The translations under genes and the position numbers were made by a program. A DNA stretch of 64,000 nucleotides from a phage. Numbering within the stretch: position 1 is the first letter of the stretch; each line of letters starts with the position of its first letter. Under the pieces are notes generated by a model, which saw only the letters and a list, made by a program, of their open reading frames with translations, ran no database searches and was not told the DNA's origin. This document shows positions 34,217 to 39,368 of the stretch, one piece after another. Location of the stretch: NCBI GenBank assembly GCA_017676145.1, contig GCA_017676145.1_3628.1, one strand, 5' to 3'.

Positions 34217-36556
34217 TTACCAAAGGTCGGTAGACATGAAGTTGATATCTTTATTGTTCTCCCACTCAAGTTTTGCATCAAACATTTTGTTAAACTCACC
34301 CTCATCTATTGAAATCGTGATTTTCCCATCACTGATCTCTAAAGGTAGCATTTCCATAGTTCTTAATTGAGAAGCAAAACCAGGGCCACCTGGCAACGGA
34401 AGAGTACCGCCCGGTAAGGTATCCAAAGGATCAACAAACCCGTTACCTCCCGATATGATATCTTTGCGAATCATATCGCTGATAGTATCCAGTTGCTGAT
34501 TTCTCTCACTCAGTGGGTTGAAACGGTCATTAAATAACTCCCCGGCACTTAATATTGTACCGATAATACCAAGCTTACCAAGCAGGCCAACTTTACCACC
34601 AGGTGTCTTGAGGCCACCTCCTCCTTTTCCTGCTGCACCCCCACCAGAACCTTCTGTGGTAGCTGCACCCGCTGCTGCTGCTCCAGCTGCACCTCTTATA
34701 GAGCTAAGGAATTTGAAGGTTTTTACAAGCATAGATGCCATGACAAAACCTTTTGTCAGGGCGTTGACTACCAGCATGATGGCAGCAGCAAACCCTGCCC
34801 ATCTAGCATAGCTAAAGGTGTCATGAAGCTCTTCAGAGTATTCCTTCGTCTTAGCTGTTATGAATCCCCATTTAATCCCCCATTCAAGGAAAAACATGCG
34901 GATCTTGACTATAGTGTTGTTTAGTTCACCAACTACCCAGTTAAGGCCTCTCACAAACCCGCTAACAAAATCACCAGAGGCATCCCACACAAATTGCAGA
35001 GTCTCACCAGTGCGGATTAGTGTATAATAGAACTCTGTTAGTTCGTCAGACCAACGGGTGAATAGTTTCTGACGAGTCAGTTCGATGAAGGTTTTCAGTC
35101 TGTTTTCTGCCAGCACGTTAGACTTCTGCATTCTTTCATAACCAGCTGCAGATGCCTCGTTCATGTACTTAGCCACATACTTCATGATCTTGGCTGTTTT
35201 AACCTCACCTTTCTTCATCATATCCATGAACTGATCCATGGAGAGTTCAGAAAGACCAAAAGCCTCTTTGGTGGCCTTGATAAAAGGTTCGTATGCACCA
35301 GGCAATGCTTCAGCAAGTTGTTGCTTCAGTTCTTCGGACATTACTTGTCCTTTACCGAGCATCTGTTGGATTGCCATGATACCACGCTGGTATTTTACCT
35401 CATCGGCACCATAAGCAGCAGCATACTGGGAGTATGCAGAAAACAGCTCATGCACTTCCTGATTTGTCATCTGGTTTTTGGCGTTTACCGACATCTGGGC
35501 GTAACCTTGAAGACCAGATTTGAGATCAAAACCAAGACGCATAGCCTCTTGCTGGACAAACGCAACCTCACTGTTGGCTTTGTTTGGATCTCCAGTAACA
35601 GCAGTAAGAGCAGCACTTGCCCCCTCCATCATGTGACCGGATCTGTTAACCGCAGCAAATCCAGAAAAAGCTGTATACGCAGCTGTTGCATTAATAACAG
35701 ATCTACGTAAGTCTCTCATGGCATCGCCTAGTGTAAGCGTTTGGCTGGTGGCGCTTTTAAACCCGGACTGCAGCGCTGACAGGTGGGCGTTAAAGGTTGA
35801 CTTCTTCATCTCCCCGCGAGCAAACCTGGACTCTAACTCTGAGTATCCTGGCAAGCTTCCACGGAATCCGGCCCCATACTTGGCAGAAAGTCTTATCGCG
35901 GAGTTGTAGAGGTGGGTTCTCCTTGCCTCACGATCCGACATAAGCTTATTATCCATACCAGCTTTACTGTCTCTTCTTAGCTGTCTATGATAACGATTCA
36001 TAGCGGCTGTCTGAGCTTTCACAAGGTTAGGGTCGGAAGCCACACCACCCATATTAGGGTTACCTGGGATATACTTGAAAGATTTAGCATTAGCCAAAAC
36101 TCTTGCCTTGGGTGCCTTATAGCCGCCGTAAGACACTGGTGCAGATTTGGCAGCCTTTTTGGCCTCTTTAGCTTGCTGCTGGTAGAACTTACGCATCCTG
36201 GCCATTTCTGGATTTTTAGCGGTAAGATTACCTACAGCCTGTTTACGTCTTGCGTTCTCCCTACGTTCTATTGCAGCCCTTACTGCAGCCTCTTTCTTGG
36301 CTTGTGCTACGCTCTCCCTGTGAAGTTTAGCATTTGCCTGAGATTGCTGTCTGGCAACCCGCTGCATTGTTTGCTGAGTTTTAACAGCCACTGCTTGCCA
36401 TCTACTCATTGGGTTGGCTGAGTTAAAATCCTCGCCCAGTTTCCTGAACTCCCTCCCAATACTGCGAATTTTCTCTACAGCTTTTTTGTAGGAGGAGTTC
36501 TCTATCTCAAAGCCAATCTTGTTGACTGTTGTGGCAACTATTTTGTTTGTAGCCAT
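34217..36556 (-). CDS. tail tape measure protein (779 aa)
   Basis: Long Ala/Gln/Lys-rich alpha-helical N-terminal part, Gly-rich middle (GAAGAAAAGAATTEGSGGGAAGKGGGGLK), preceded by chaperone pair with frameshift. Confidence 0.7.
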   Translation of the reverse strand: MATNKIVATTVNKIGFEIENSSYKKAVEKIRSIGREFRKLGEDFNSANPMSRWQAVAVKTQQTMQRVARQQSQANAKLHRESVAQAKKEAAVRAAIERRENARRKQAVGNLTAKNPEMARMRKFYQQQAKEAKKAAKSAPVSYGGYKAPKARVLANAKSFKYIPGNPNMGGVASDPNLVKAQTAAMNRYHRQLRRDSKAGMDNKLMSDREARRTHLYNSAIRLSAKYGAGFRGSLPGYSELESRFARGEMKKSTFNAHLSALQSGFKSATSQTLTLGDAMRDLRRSVINATAAYTAFSGFAAVNRSGHMMEGASAALTAVTGDPNKANSEVAFVQQEAMRLGFDLKSGLQGYAQMSVNAKNQMTNQEVHELFSAYSQYAAAYGADEVKYQRGIMAIQQMLGKGQVMSEELKQQLAEALPGAYEPFIKATKEAFGLSELSMDQFMDMMKKGEVKTAKIMKYVAKYMNEASAAGYERMQKSNVLAENRLKTFIELTRQKLFTRWSDELTEFYYTLIRTGETLQFVWDASGDFVSGFVRGLNWVVGELNNTIVKIRMFFLEWGIKWGFITAKTKEYSEELHDTFSYARWAGFAAAIMLVVNALTKGFVMASMLVKTFKFLSSIRGAAGAAAAGAATTEGSGGGAAGKGGGGLKTPGGKVGLLGKLGIIGTILSAGELFNDRFNPLSERNQQLDTISDMIRKDIISGGNGFVDPLDTLPGGTLPLPGGPGFASQLRTMEMLPLEISDGKITISIDEGEFNKMFDAKLEWENNKDINFMSTDLW

Positions 36557-36611
36557 GCTTTCCTCATAATAAAAAAGGGCCAGATCCCAGAAAAGGAATC
36601 CGGCCCTTAGA

Positions 36612-36860
36612 TTATCCTCTCCTGCGCTTAGCTTTCGCAGCAGCTGCGGCAGCCTTCTGCTCCCGCTCCATTTCTCTGTTTTGGACGGTATCTAGGAATT
36701 CTTCGATATCAAGATACTCACAGAGCTTCAGGAAATACGCCATATCTGCAAGATTTAGCGATTCAAAATTTTCCCCTTTGAAATTCTTGAGCACCCTGCA
36801 CCAAAGAAAGTCGAACCAGTTAAGTGAACTGTTCTTGGCTGCCCACTCACTGGCCCTCAC
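36612..36860 (-). CDS. tail assembly chaperone, -1 frameshift extension (GT-like C-terminal part)
   Basis: ORF in -1 frame relative to 36872..37345; its frame is open upstream through the end of the upstream ORF and past a UUUUUUC slippery heptamer. Confidence 0.55.
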   Translation of the reverse strand: MRASEWAAKNSSLNWFDFLWCRVLKNFKGENFESLNLADMAYFLKLCEYLDIEEFLDTVQNREMEREQKAAAAAAKAKRRRG

Positions 36861-36871
36861 AACAACCTTGC

Positions 36872-37345
36872 TTATTCCTGCTCTTCCGGAGTCTGATCCA
36901 GATTGTTCACCTGCTGGATCATACCCATCTGCTGTAACATCTCCAGAAGGCTTCCTAAACCGTCTTGTGTGAAAAAACAGCCGTAGTTAACCTCCAGAAC
37001 CTTACCTGCCAGCTTAATCATCTCCAGCAGATGCCCTGCAAACACAACATCAGGGTTAAGCTTATCCACACCATCCACGGTAATATCTTCGAACAAGATT
37101 TTAAATAACTCTTCGATAGAGTTATCATCAAGTTCTTGGAACAGGTAAGCCAGGGCTGTAGGAAGGACCTCTGCCATATTCTGACCGCCTGAGAGAATAG
37201 ATCCACCGATAGCACCTAGCGGGACAGCTACAATCTTACCGATTTTAGGCATGTTTTTCATTGCTTTCATCGGTCCCCAGTGGGTGATCACAAAGTTGTG
37301 CCCTGCTAAATCAATCTCTGTTGTAGGTCTAAAGTTTATAGCCAT
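36872..37345 (-). CDS. tail assembly chaperone (G-like)
   Basis: 157 aa acidic protein immediately upstream of tape measure; classic chaperone position. Confidence 0.55.
   Translation of the reverse strand: MAINFRPTTEIDLAGHNFVITHWGPMKAMKNMPKIGKIVAVPLGAIGGSILSGGQNMAEVLPTALAYLFQELDDNSIEELFKILFEDITVDGVDKLNPDVVFAGHLLEMIKLAGKVLEVNYGCFFTQDGLGSLLEMLQQMGMIQQVNNLDQTPEEQE
36971..36977 (-). other. candidate -1 programmed ribosomal frameshift site (U UUU UUC)
   Basis: Heptamer TTTTTTC in the X XXY YYZ register of the chaperone frame (codons tgt ttt ttc), ~30 codons before its stop; -1 frame open from here into 36612..36860. Confidence 0.45.
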
Positions 37346-37388: not shown

Positions 37389-37417
37389 ATTTTACCATGA
37401 TTATGGTGCATTGTCAA
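37389..37417 (-). promoter_or_regulatory. sigma70-like promoter (TTGACA-17-TAAAAT) with flanking inverted repeat
   Basis: On minus strand TTGACAatgcaccataatcatggTAAAAT; inverted repeat TGCACCATA / TATGGTGCA brackets the -10; located upstream of chaperone/tape measure genes. Confidence 0.5.
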
Positions 37418-37454: not shown

Positions 37455-37489
37455 CCATAAAAGCAAAAAGCCCCACCCGAAGGTGAGGC
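37455..37489 (-). terminator. rho-independent terminator
   Basis: On minus strand GCCTCACC-ttcg-GGTGGGGC hairpin followed by TTTTTGCTTTTATGG, downstream of 157-aa tube-like gene. Confidence 0.65.
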
Positions 37490-37507
37490 CTATGCTAAAG
37501 TGTGCCC

Positions 37508-37981
37508 TTAGATAATACCTGCAAGACCTGCGAGGCCAGTGAGAGCACCAGTGATGTTGTCACGGTTGAGCCATGCATCCAGAATACCGATATCCCAGTC
37601 CAGTTGACCTACTTCGGTTCCGTAAGTCAGGTCAGGCTGCTTCTGAATCCAACCGATTGTGGAAATACCAGGACCCTGGCTGCCCTCCAGCAGAACTGGG
37701 AAGAATACCAGACCAGTAATCGATGCCTGTTTCTGCCAGTCAGAGAGGTAAGCGTTCCATACAGAAGTGTTCTGCAAAGACACAGTCATAACACCTGATT
37801 GGTTACGAGACAGTGCCGCAGACATTTCGCCATCCACACCAACATGAGGGTAGATGTTGTCTTCGTTTCTTGAAACAACGATCTTGGTGTCAGCAGCGAA
37901 GCCAGTGACACGCTGCTGCATCAGATACAGTTTGACCTTTTTAGGGTCATACGCATAAGGAGTTAAAATTTGAGTTTCCAT
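37508..37981 (-). CDS. tail tube protein (tentative)
   Basis: 157-aa gene immediately downstream of a 458-aa sheath-sized gene and followed by a terminator; pattern typical of contractile tails. Confidence 0.45.
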   Translation of the reverse strand: METQILTPYAYDPKKVKLYLMQQRVTGFAADTKIVVSRNEDNIYPHVGVDGEMSAALSRNQSGVMTVSLQNTSVWNAYLSDWQKQASITGLVFFPVLLEGSQGPGISTIGWIQKQPDLTYGTEVGQLDWDIGILDAWLNRDNITGALTGLAGLAGII

Positions 37982-37991
37982 CTAGGCTTCC

Positions 37992-39368
37992 TTATTCAGT
38001 CATTGCAACAGCATTGGTGGATTTAGAACCAACTTTGTCCAGAAGGACGTTGATCCGGATACGAACGAAGTGCAGGGCGTTGTTATACACCAGTTCTACT
38101 TTCACACCTTCCAGAACACGAGCAGCCAACTGATTGGTTGGGATCTCTGCACGTTTAGGAACTGTGATGATCGGGTCGTAGAACACATTGTTGTCTTCGT
38201 CAAAACCTGTCAGGATCGCGCCATTCTTAATGCCAGTATTGATCGGGTTGTTCATCAGAACAGACTTGATAACCGGAAGATCATCATCAGACATCTTCAT
38301 GCTTAAACCCATATTGGAGCGGCGATGCATGTACCCGAACATGGATTCTTCAGATCTGAACTTGATCCAGTGTGCAAAACGAATAGCGTCTGCATACTGA
38401 CCTGAAGCACACTTACCTTCCCAGAAAGCGCCAACACCGTTAATCATTCTATAGAAGTTAACGTGGTTTTCCCAAATCGCCATGCGCTGAGTTAAAGTCA
38501 GAGATGGTGCAATCACACCCGGCATCTGTTTTAAGTGCAAGCTGTCACCGTAAGACGGATCGTTGGATGCCATAGCGCCTACGATACCACCCTCTGGAAA
38601 ATCTTTATCAGCACGAGGATCGTACATGCCGACACTGTCATACTGTGCAGCCATCAGTTTGGTGGCGATGTTATTATCTTTGCCAGTCACATCTTCTGCA
38701 GTAGAGTAGACATGCAGCTTGTAGTTAGCCTGAGCCCACTTGGCACATGCTTCAATGTCGGTGTGGTCTTCATGGCACAGGAAGTACCAATTGTCACGCT
38801 CAGCATTGATCTTATCAACTACTGTAGAAGGTTTTTCAGCATTGGCGATATTTTTGATTGTGTAGTTACCAGTATGATAACCAACAGTGCAGTTACCAGT
38901 GATGGTGAGAACACCTTCAGCAGCCTCTACAGTGATATCGTTCAAGCTATCATCTGCTTCAATTTTAGTCTTCATTGACTCTGCAATCTGAGTTGCACCT
39001 GTTCCACCAGAGATAGGCACTATCAAAGAAGTATTGTAGCTACCTTTTGCAATAGTCATTACAACATCGGTATCAGCTGCGGCAGCAATACCTTTAAAAT
39101 CTACAGTGGTCTTTTCTTTGGCCTGTCTGCCGATCATAACGTATTGTGGAGGGAATACACCACCAAAAGCTTTTGCTGCAAACTCATACGCTGCAGAGCC
39201 TTGTGCGAAACCATCTTCCACCATCTGATCCAGCTCTGCATATACGCGAGCTCGCTCAGTAAAGTTGTTGTGGATAGCGATGAACAGGGGAGTTTCGAAA
39301 CCTACAGTGTCAATAGGCTGGGTTCCGAGGTTAACTGTAACATCTACCACTTTATCTAAATATGGCAT
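37992..39368 (-). CDS. tail sheath protein (tentative; alternatively a large major tail protein)
   Basis: 458 aa, first gene of tail block with its own promoter-like region; assignment by size, order and downstream tube-like gene. Confidence 0.45.
   Translation of the reverse strand: MPYLDKVVDVTVNLGTQPIDTVGFETPLFIAIHNNFTERARVYAELDQMVEDGFAQGSAAYEFAAKAFGGVFPPQYVMIGRQAKEKTTVDFKGIAAAADTDVVMTIAKGSYNTSLIVPISGGTGATQIAESMKTKIEADDSLNDITVEAAEGVLTITGNCTVGYHTGNYTIKNIANAEKPSTVVDKINAERDNWYFLCHEDHTDIEACAKWAQANYKLHVYSTAEDVTGKDNNIATKLMAAQYDSVGMYDPRADKDFPEGGIVGAMASNDPSYGDSLHLKQMPGVIAPSLTLTQRMAIWENHVNFYRMINGVGAFWEGKCASGQYADAIRFAHWIKFRSEESMFGYMHRRSNMGLSMKMSDDDLPVIKSVLMNNPINTGIKNGAILTGFDEDNNVFYDPIITVPKRAEIPTNQLAARVLEGVKVELVYNNALHFVRIRINVLLDKVGSKSTNAVAMTE

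What the first reader, a model, noticed from the sequence alone, without database searches (positions are those of the whole stretch)
36612..37345. Candidate -1 programmed frameshift in tail assembly chaperone pair (U UUU UUC)
The ORF downstream of the chaperone lies in the -1 frame and that frame stays open back across the chaperone's last ~30 codons to a slippery heptamer TTTTTTC (36971-36977) in the correct register. This matches the conserved G/GT frameshift upstream of tape measure genes and would yield a ~240-aa fusion.
Basis: partly seen in the sequence, partly recalled or inferred. Interest (0 to 1): 0.45.

Follow-up and report, generated by a model that had tools for sequence, protein, structure and literature searches.

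The report
Unannotated tail-chaperone frameshift in rV5-like phage
This phage almost certainly makes a second, longer tail-assembly chaperone by letting a few ribosomes slip back one base at TTTTTTC; this is the well-known lambda G/GT trick, found here in a phage group whose database records have missed it.

Summary
The window is Escherichia phage FV3, an rV5-like myovirus, with its tail genes on the minus strand.

**Layout**
- The chaperone gene (36872-37345) sits between the tube gene and the tape measure gene.
- It contains one in-register slippery heptamer, T_TTT_TTC (36977..36971).
- The -1 frame opens three codons upstream of the heptamer and runs 124 codons to 36612.
- The predicted fusion is 244 aa.

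**Comparative evidence**
- The layout is present in all 50 related loci checked, down to about 26% chaperone identity.
- The codon before TTT TTC varies (TGT, TCT, AGT, CCT) but always ends in T.
- Two relatives carry other classical heptamers, CCCTTTT and GGGAAAG.
- Synonymous-codon identity peaks at the site (0.76-0.89 against 0.48 gene-wide).
- The -1 peptide is conserved from the first post-shift residue.
- The downstream ORF has no conserved start codon or ribosome-binding site.
- The predicted chaperone fold ends at the shift site.

**Stimulators:** no conserved downstream RNA structure was found. An SD-like GGAGG lies 13 nt upstream and could stimulate the shift.

**Status:** none of the 19 GenBank/RefSeq records inspected joins the two ORFs. 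No paper found mentions the frameshift.

**Verdict:** a new member of a known kind. It is worth an annotation fix but is not surprising.

The parts
37389..37417 (-). Sigma-70-like promoter (TTGACA, 17-nt spacer, TAAAAT, with an extended -10 TG) upstream of the chaperone gene.
   Evidence: 11 of 12 consensus matches. The rV5 GenBank record annotates the homologous site as promoter P51.
36872..37345 (-). Tail assembly chaperone ORF in the 0 frame (the 'G' equivalent), 157 aa.
   Evidence: Pfam PF21822 Phage_TAC_15, E = 1e-23. phrog_3840 'tail assembly chaperone', E = 6e-69. In the AF2 model the core (residues 8-123) has pLDDT 70-89 and residues 124-157 fall below 50. Foldseek against BFVD returns proteins annotated as tail or tape-measure chaperones.
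36991..36995 (-). SD-like GGAGG, 13 nt upstream of the heptamer. Candidate upstream stimulator; function untested.
   Evidence: the duplex with the anti-SD is -10 kcal/mol, and only 3.6% of 24-nt windows in the chaperone and tape measure genes reach that; an SD-like motif is present at this position in 20 of 28 distinct contexts (GGAGG 8, GAGGT 8, GGAG 4). The Glu codon at that position is GAG in 20 of 25 Glu contexts, against 48% GAG usage in FV3 structural genes. The conserved L-E-V residues confound this.
36987..36989 (-). TAA stop in the -1 frame. It sets the 5' limit of the -1 open window, three codons before the heptamer.
36971..36977 (-). Slippery heptamer T_TTT_TTC in X_XXY_YYZ register, covering Cys123 (third base), Phe124 and Phe125.
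   Evidence: It is conserved in 28 of 28 distinct contexts from relatives. The preceding codon is TGT, TCT, AGT or CCT and always ends in T. U_UU.U_UU.C belongs to the efficient class of heptamers in E. coli (PMC4066793).
36612..36971 (-). -1 frame extension (the 'T' equivalent), 119 codons plus stop. It has an RRFRKP motif, a Gly/Ser-rich linker and a conserved C-terminal domain of about 65 aa. With codons 1-125 of the chaperone it gives a 244-aa fusion.
   Evidence: tblastn matches start at residue 1 of the extension in related phages. The part from 36860 is phrog_10409, function unknown. There is no Pfam or NCBIfam hit.
36872..36971 (-). Dual-coding overlap between the 0-frame chaperone tail (32 aa) and the start of the -1 frame extension.
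   Evidence: synonymous-codon identity is 0.76-0.89 for codons 118-135, against 0.48 gene-wide.
36575..36608 (-). Intrinsic terminator-like hairpin followed by a T run, between the T ORF and the tape measure gene.
   Evidence: 14 pairs. Annotated as a terminator in the rV5 and Murica records.
34217..36556 (-). Tape measure protein gene (779 aa). It is the presumed client of the chaperone.
   Evidence: Pfam TMP_3, E = 1.5e-18. phrog_5255.

Best explanation
This is a programmed -1 ribosomal frameshift of the lambda G/GT (P2 E/E+E') type.

**Proposed mechanism**
- Most ribosomes translate the chaperone ORF to its stop and make the 157-aa chaperone.
- A minority slip back one base. This happens when tRNA-Phe occupies the P site on TTT and the A site on TTC of T_TTT_TTC.
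- Both tRNAs re-pair with TTT. The C is read again as the first base of CAC (His).
- Translation then continues for 119 codons in the -1 frame. The product is a 244-aa fusion with the junction ...VLEVNYGCFF|HTRRFRKP....

**Inferred function, by analogy with lambda (PMC5009743)**
- The shared N-terminal chaperone domain coats the tape measure protein.
- The C-terminal T domain, on a flexible Gly/Ser linker, recruits the tube protein.
- The fixed low ratio of fusion to chaperone is what the frameshift provides.

**Shown here:** the sequence architecture and its evolutionary conservation.
**Inferred:** that slippage actually occurs, its efficiency, and the binding partners.
For: 1. **Register and uniqueness.** This is the only in-register heptamer in the gene, and it sits at the 5' edge of a 124-codon open -1 frame.
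2. **Conservation of the layout.**
   - Twelve divergent GenBank phages keep it. They span Vequintavirinae, Stephanstirmvirinae, Plateaulakevirus, Barbavirus and others, with chaperone identity of 28-55%.
   - Ten of the twelve have TTTTTTC, one has CCCTTTT and one has GGGAAAG.
   - Four metagenomic loci and 34 IMG/VR loci, including ten at 26-35% identity, also keep it.
3. **Selection at nucleotide level.**
   - The codon before TTT TTC is TGT (Cys), TCT or AGT (Ser), or CCT (Pro). It ends in T in 28 of 28 distinct contexts.
   - Phe-Phe is never encoded as TTC TTx.
4. **Synonymous-site conservation.** It peaks at 0.76-0.89 over codons 118-135, against a gene mean of 0.48.
5. **Conserved -1 peptide.** It is conserved from the first post-shift residues (RRFR.P) through a conserved C-terminal domain.
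6. **No independent start.**
   - There is no conserved start codon or SD for the downstream ORF.
   - In K54rec2, CB7, PBES02, KLEP7 and Barba16S the first possible start lies within or beyond the conserved W[FY]D motif.
7. **Fold boundary.** The AF2 chaperone core ends at residue 123. The 0-frame tail has low confidence.
8. **Heptamer efficiency.** U_UU.U_UU.C belongs to the most efficient heptamer class in E. coli and frameshifts above 0.1% without stimulators (PMC4066793).
9. **Gene order.** Sheath, tube, chaperone/T, tape measure.
Against: - There is no experimental evidence here or in the papers searched that the fusion protein exists.
- No significant or conserved downstream stimulatory RNA structure was found in this lineage (z = -1.3 and +0.45; consensus energy -2.3 kcal/mol).
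- The T extension has no detectable sequence similarity to lambda gpT or to any Pfam or NCBIfam family.
- The T-domain model has low confidence (pLDDT 51), so its role is assigned by analogy only.
- One of the two peptide patterns used to collect the IMG/VR loci contained 'FF', which biases that set towards keeping the Phe-Phe codons.
- A GTG at 36860 could in principle initiate an 82-aa product.
Confidence: 0.9

Rival explanations
1. There are two independent genes. The downstream ORF is translated on its own from GTG 36860, as annotated in FV3 RefSeq, to give an 82-aa protein. No frameshifting is involved.
For: The FV3, Murica, PVP-SE1 and other records annotate a separate small CDS. Gene callers also call ORFs of 80-82 aa.
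Against: - The GTG has no SD at a usable spacing; the only AGGA is 15 nt away.
- Annotated starts differ from phage to phage. In five relatives the first possible start lies inside or after the conserved motif.
- The 37 -1-frame codons upstream of the GTG are conserved as protein, and tblastn alignments begin at the first post-heptamer residue.
- This explanation does not account for heptamer conservation at synonymous positions.
Confidence: 0.05
2. The same 244-aa fusion is made, but by transcriptional slippage. RNA polymerase would insert one extra U at the T6 run, and ribosomes would not slip.
For: The site is a homopolymeric run of six T. Transcriptional slippage on A or T runs is known in bacteria and phages (reviewed in PMC5009743).
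Against: - KLEP7 (CCCTTTT) and Barba16S (GGGAAAG) use classical tandem-slippage heptamers at the equivalent place. The latter has no long homopolymer run.
- The run is kept in exact X_XXY_YYZ register in 28 of 28 contexts, and almost never lengthened to T7 (1 of 28). Selection for polymerase slippage would instead favour lengthening.
- From my own knowledge, six residues is shorter than the runs that give efficient E. coli RNA polymerase slippage.
Confidence: 0.04
3. The overlap and the heptamer are coincidental. The -1 ORF is non-coding or a relic.
For: None beyond the absence of experimental data.
Against: P is about 9e-6 for a 124-codon open -1 frame. The arrangement and the -1 peptide are conserved across subfamilies.
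Confidence: 0.01

Closest known systems
Bacteriophage lambda gpG / gpGT programmed -1 frameshift (Levin et al. 1993; Xu, Hendrix and Duda 2004, 2013, 2014; summarised in PMC5009743)
   Same: - The two overlapping ORFs lie between the major tail gene and the tape measure gene.
- The second ORF is in the -1 frame and has no start of its own.
[quoted passage not shown]
- The products share an N-terminal chaperone domain.
- Barba16S, a relative of this chaperone, uses lambda's own heptamer GGGAAAG.
   Different: - The tail is contractile (myovirus), not a siphovirus tail.
- The heptamer is T_TTT_TTC, not G_GGA_AAG.
- The chaperone falls in Pfam Phage_TAC_15.
- The T extension matches no Pfam family, including lambda's T family, so it is analogous rather than demonstrably homologous.
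- The frameshift ratio and binding partners are untested.
Bacteriophage P2 gpE / gpE+E' (Christie et al. 2002; described in PMC3091744)
   Same: - The phage is a myovirus.
- The -1 shift is on a T6 run (P2: TTTTTTG; here: TTTTTTC).
- No downstream RNA structure is found (for P2; here).
   Different: - P2 E is 91 aa and E+E' is 142 aa. Here the products are 157 and 244 aa.
- No sequence similarity was detected.
- The last base of the heptamer is C rather than G.
- Here the gene pair has its own promoter and is bracketed by terminators.
E. coli dnaX -1 frameshift with an upstream SD-like stimulator
   Same: An SD-like GGAGG lies 13 nt 5' of the heptamer. That is inside the 6-17 nt range in which such elements are searched for and have been shown to stimulate (PMC4066793).
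   Different: - dnaX also has a strong downstream hairpin and uses A_AAA_AAG.
- Here the SD-like element is absent from 8 of 28 contexts.
- It coincides with conserved Leu-Glu-Val codons, so its role is only a hypothesis.

Membership tests
G/GT-type tail assembly chaperone frameshift (Xu, Hendrix and Duda 2004) | A pair of overlapping ORFs located between the major tail (tube) gene and the tape measure gene. | tested here: met
   The order on the minus strand is sheath, tube, chaperone/T, tape measure.
G/GT-type tail assembly chaperone frameshift (Xu, Hendrix and Duda 2004) | The upstream ORF is a tail assembly chaperone. | tested here: met
   Pfam PF21822, E = 1e-23, above its cut-off. phrog_3840. 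BFVD fold matches include proteins annotated as chaperones, 20 of them at E <= 1e-3. The PDB fold search was inconclusive: the best hit was 5ir0 at E = 0.39.
G/GT-type tail assembly chaperone frameshift (Xu, Hendrix and Duda 2004) | A slippery X_XXY_YYZ heptamer, in the 0-frame register, inside the overlap. | tested here: met
   T_TTT_TTC at 36977..36971.
G/GT-type tail assembly chaperone frameshift (Xu, Hendrix and Duda 2004) | The downstream ORF is in the -1 frame and lacks its own conserved start codon and ribosome-binding site. | tested here: met
G/GT-type tail assembly chaperone frameshift (Xu, Hendrix and Duda 2004) | The arrangement and the slip site are conserved among diverged relatives. 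| tested here: met
G/GT-type tail assembly chaperone frameshift (Xu, Hendrix and Duda 2004) | Both the short and the frameshifted product are made, at a fixed low ratio, and both are needed for tail assembly. | not testable with these tools
   This needs proteomics, reporter assays or genetics. No paper found reports it for rV5-like phages.
G/GT-type tail assembly chaperone frameshift (Xu, Hendrix and Duda 2004) | The G domain binds the tape measure protein and the T domain binds the major tail or tube protein. | not testable with these tools
   Inferred from lambda only (PMC5009743).
Lambda gpT sequence family (Pfam Phage_tail_T; family name from memory) | Significant sequence match of the -1 extension to the family profile. 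| tested here: not met
   The 119-aa extension matches no Pfam family at E <= 0.1. It has no NCBIfam match and no PDB sequence match.
-1 frameshift sites stimulated by a downstream hairpin or pseudoknot | A stable, conserved RNA structure 5-9 nt 3' of the heptamer. | tested here: not met
   z = -1.3 for 108 nt and +0.45 for 57 nt. The consensus energy is -2.3 kcal/mol, and the only shared helix starts 48 nt downstream. Only the distant relative phiA009 has such a hairpin (z = -3.4).
-1 frameshift sites stimulated by an upstream SD-like element (dnaX type) | An SD-like sequence 6-17 nt 5' of the heptamer, conserved among relatives. | tested here: inconclusive
   GGAGG lies 13 nt upstream (-10 kcal/mol). 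It is present in some form in 20 of 28 contexts, but it overlaps conserved L-E-V codons.

The most novel reading that the evidence does not exclude
The signal may be bipartite in the dnaX manner. An internal SD-like GGAGG or GAGGT is held 12-13 nt upstream of the T6C heptamer by preferential use of GAG for a conserved Glu. It would then act as the stimulator in most of this chaperone family. Lineages that lost it would have compensated in other ways; for example, phiA009 has a strong hairpin 6 nt downstream. That would make this family a natural series for studying how frameshift stimulators are exchanged while the chaperone-to-fusion ratio is kept constant.
Probability: 0.3. Interest if true: 0.4.

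Novelty: new member of a known kind. Interest (0 to 1): 0.25.

Why it matters
**Practical value**
- At least 357 phage genomes in the collection carry this T extension. They include rV5-like, PVP-SE1-like, phAPEC8-like and phi92-like phages, some of them relatives of therapy and biocontrol candidates.
- None of the 19 records I inspected annotates the joined product.
- The second ORF is given arbitrary starts (GTG, CTG, or internal ATGs), is split in two, or is omitted.
- Correct annotation adds an essential tail-assembly protein, and explains why a "hypothetical protein" with no start codon is so well conserved.

**Scientific value**
The finding extends the Xu-Hendrix-Duda rule to another large group of lytic myoviruses. 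It also gives a clean comparative data set: one chaperone family, three different heptamers, and variable stimulators. It does not change how this mechanism is understood.

Tried and rejected
- **Downstream stimulatory structure.** Single-sequence folds of 57 and 108 nt and an RNAalifold consensus of seven Vequintavirinae sequences gave nothing significant or conserved.
- **Solved structures.** The fusion has no sequence match in the PDB.
- **Predicting the fusion's structure.** The T-extension model is too poor for a fold search (pLDDT 51, only 4 sequences).
- **Looking for an already-annotated fusion.**
  - The 244-aa query returned 73 proteins of 149-159 aa, all chaperone only.
  - The T extension returned three ORFs of 80-82 aa.
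- **Literature.** Searches on rV5, Vequintavirus, phi92 and PVP-SE1 combined with frameshift or chaperone terms found nothing specific. The rV5 genome and proteome paper does not contain the word 'frameshift'.
- **+1 frame.** It is open for only 19 codons across the chaperone stop, so it was rejected.
- **Other slip sites in the overlap.** There is no other heptamer. The only in-register tetramer is U_UUA (GGT TTA), which is not in the shift-prone set reported in PMC4066793.

Full report
**Identity of the window**

The 1-kb region around the finding is 99.6% identical to Escherichia phage FV3. It is 95-99% identical to more than 100 other rV5-like myoviruses of the genus Vequintavirus. The tail genes lie on the minus strand in this order:

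| Coordinates | Gene | Evidence |
|---|---|---|
| 37992-39368 | sheath | phrog_205 |
| 37508-37981 | tube | Pfam KPP10_Orf10, phrog_280 |
| 36872-37345 | 157-aa chaperone ORF | Pfam Phage_TAC_15 (E = 1e-23), phrog_3840 'tail assembly chaperone' |
| 36612-36860 | 82-aa ORF | phrog_10409, function unknown |
| 34217-36556 | 779-aa tape measure protein | Pfam TMP_3, phrog_5255 |

**Checking the observation**

- The minus strand reads AAC TAC GGC TGT TTT TTC ACA in the chaperone frame, which is N Y G C F F T.
- TTTTTTC (36977..36971) is therefore exactly in X_XXY_YYZ register.
- In the -1 frame a TAA lies at 36989..36987. The frame then stays open for 124 codons to the stop at 36612.
- Slippage would join residues 1-125 to a 119-residue extension, giving a 244-aa protein.
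- This is the only in-register heptamer in the gene.
- Such heptamers occur at 0.25% per codon in the window's long ORFs.
- The -1 frame of neighbouring genes has a stop every 11 codons or so. Its longest other open run is 54 codons.

**Comparative evidence**

I fetched the homologous locus from 12 divergent GenBank phages. Their chaperone identity to FV3 ranges from 55% down to 28%. They were PVP-SE1, Av-05, Klebsiella K54_rec2, CB7, A73, PBES 02, KLEP7, phAPEC8, phiA009, Barba16S, Eryne and FKP3.

- In all 12 the -1 frame opens a few codons before an in-register slippery heptamer. It then extends 224-296 nt beyond the chaperone stop.
- The heptamer is TTTTTTC in ten, CCCTTTT in KLEP7 and GGGAAAG in Barba16S.
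- Four metagenomic loci found through protein hits show the same arrangement.
- So do 34 IMG/VR loci, ten of them at only 26-35% identity.
- One of the two peptide patterns used for the IMG/VR scan contained 'FF', which biases that set.

Across 28 distinct sequence contexts:

- The codon before TTT TTC is TGT (Cys, 15), TCT (Ser, 7), AGT (Ser, 3) or CCT (Pro, 3).
- The amino acid changes, but the third base is always T.
- Phe-Phe is TTT TTC in 27 contexts and TTT TTT in one.

Among ten Vequintavirinae chaperone genes, synonymous-codon identity averages 0.48. It rises to 0.76-0.89 in windows covering codons 118-135, and returns to about 0.4 further downstream. That is the expected signature of a nucleotide-level element followed by a short stretch of dual coding.

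**The -1 product is a real protein, and it can only be reached by frameshifting**

- The extensions align from their first residues (RRFR.P, or R.RYW in the most distant group).
- A Gly/Ser-rich linker of variable length follows.
- They end in a conserved domain of about 65 residues: KNSSL.WFDYLWCR..K.FKGE...SLE..DM.YLLKLNEYLDIEEF.
- tblastn with the extension finds 357 phage records. The alignments begin at residue 1 of the extension.
- No start codon or SD is conserved.
- The FV3 GTG at 36860 has no SD at a usable spacing.
- In K54_rec2, CB7, PBES 02, KLEP7 and Barba16S the first ATG, GTG or TTG lies within or beyond the conserved W[FY]D motif.

Annotators have accordingly placed the start anywhere. 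rV5 ORF50 was started at a CTG just before the heptamer. FV3 and Murica use the GTG. NHEP1 splits the ORF in two. Phages WM and naam omit it.

**Structure**

- An AlphaFold2 model of the chaperone, built on 28 sequences, has pLDDT 70-89 for residues 8-123 and below 50 for residues 124-157.
- The folded core therefore ends exactly at the shift site, so the frameshift swaps one flexible tail for another.
- Foldseek against BFVD gives 20 matches at E <= 1e-3. They include proteins annotated as tail assembly or tape measure chaperones.
- The PDB gives nothing significant. The best match is 5ir0, a Vibrio PLE protein of unknown function, at E = 0.39.
- The model of the T extension has low confidence (pLDDT 51). 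It suggests only a disordered first 30 residues or so followed by helices.

**Stimulators**

- No downstream structure is significant in FV3 (z = -1.3 and +0.45).
- None is conserved among seven relatives.
- This matches P2 E/E+E', where none is found either (PMC3091744).
- U_UU.U_UU.C belongs to the most efficient heptamer class in E. coli (H_HH.U_UU.Y). It shifts above 0.1% even without stimulators (PMC4066793).
- An SD-like GGAGG lies at 36995..36991, 13 nt upstream of the heptamer. Its duplex with the anti-SD is -10 kcal/mol, and only 3.6% of local windows are as strong.
- An SD-like motif is present at the same position in 20 of 28 contexts (GGAGG 8, GAGGT 8, GGAG 4).
- The Glu codon there is GAG in 20 of 25 Glu contexts. 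GAG usage in FV3 structural genes is 48%.
- These contexts are not phylogenetically independent, and the motif overlaps conserved Leu-Glu-Val codons. This remains a hypothesis.

**Rival explanations**

- **Independent initiation.** The missing start and the conservation upstream of any start contradict it.
- **Transcriptional slippage on the T6 run.** It would give the same protein. It is disfavoured by the heteropolymeric heptamers in KLEP7 and Barba16S. The strictly kept register and the near absence of longer T runs also argue against it.
- **Chance.** Excluded by the statistics and the conservation described above.

**Comparison with known systems**

- In mechanism and genomic position this is the conserved tail-chaperone frameshift. 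It was first shown for lambda G/GT and generalised by Xu, Hendrix and Duda (2004), as summarised in PMC5009743. P2 E/E+E' is the closest case with a contractile tail.
- By sequence, the chaperone belongs to Pfam Phage_TAC_15.
- The T extension belongs to no described family. Its homology to lambda T is therefore not shown.
- All features of the G/GT class that can be tested in silico are met. Production of the fusion, its ratio to the chaperone and its binding partners are untested.

**Novelty**

- None of the 19 GenBank/RefSeq records I inspected joins the two ORFs.
- A search of 5.8 billion predicted proteins returned no fused product.
- The rV5 genome paper, and the other papers searchable here, do not mention the frameshift.
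- It is therefore an unannotated but entirely expected new member of a well-known kind.

Confidence that the frameshift is real and ribosomal is about 0.9. Interest is low to moderate, at 0.25.

Noticed in passing
window 36991-36995 (minus strand): An SD-like GGAGG lies 13 nt upstream of the slippery heptamer. It recurs at the same spacing in most relatives, with GAG preferred over GAA for the Glu codon. It could be a dnaX-style upstream stimulator.
   Followed up: partly
window 37389-37417, 37468-37491 and 36575-36608 (all minus strand): The chaperone/T pair looks like its own transcription unit. It has a near-consensus sigma-70 promoter (TTGACA, 17-nt spacer, TAAAAT, with TG). Terminator-like hairpins follow the tube gene and precede the tape measure gene. 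The homologous sites are annotated in rV5 and Murica.
   Followed up: partly
L012 1842-1898 (Aeromonas phage phiA009): This distant relative has no upstream SD-like motif. It does have a strong hairpin starting 6 nt after TTTTTTC (-20.6 kcal/mol, z = -3.4), so it may use a different stimulator.
   Followed up: partly
search hits (for example MG065654.1, MG065677.1, MG065666.1): About 18-23 GenBank records named 'Campylobacter phage', with host given as Campylobacter jejuni, are about 98% identical to E. coli rV5-like phages in this region. Many of them carry no annotation. The host assignment looks doubtful.
   Followed up: no
L018 1-1097 and L019 1-1144 (gut metagenome relatives at about 70% chaperone identity): A large gene (512-621 aa) with Pfam DUF723 hits sits directly upstream of the chaperone gene. 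FV3 has the tube gene and a terminator there. This may be an inserted mobile or endonuclease-like gene.
   Followed up: no
L007 2312-3382 (CB7) and L013 2120-2758 (Barba16S): Extra genes lie between the T ORF and the tape measure gene. CB7 has two ORFs there. Barba16S has a putative DNA-binding gene on the opposite strand. The chaperone and tape measure genes are therefore not always adjacent in this family.
   Followed up: no
L016 1566-1934 (rV5 GenBank record DQ832317): rV5 ORF50 was annotated as overlapping ORF51 by 109 nt, starting at a CTG immediately before the heptamer. The -1 ORF was evidently recognised as longer than any normal start allows, but it was not joined to ORF51.
   Followed up: yes
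PDB 5ir0 (Vibrio cholerae PLE ORF19): The best solved-structure match to the chaperone model is a protein of unknown function from a phage-parasitic PLE element (Foldseek probability 0.94, E = 0.39, target-normalised TM-score 0.61). It is not significant, but it hints that the PLE protein may have a chaperone-like fold.
   Followed up: no
L010 1333-1953 (Pseudaeromonas phage KLEP7): The chaperone is annotated with an N-terminal extension of about 50 residues (206 aa in total) that is absent from all the other relatives. This could be a mis-called start or a real extra segment.
   Followed up: no
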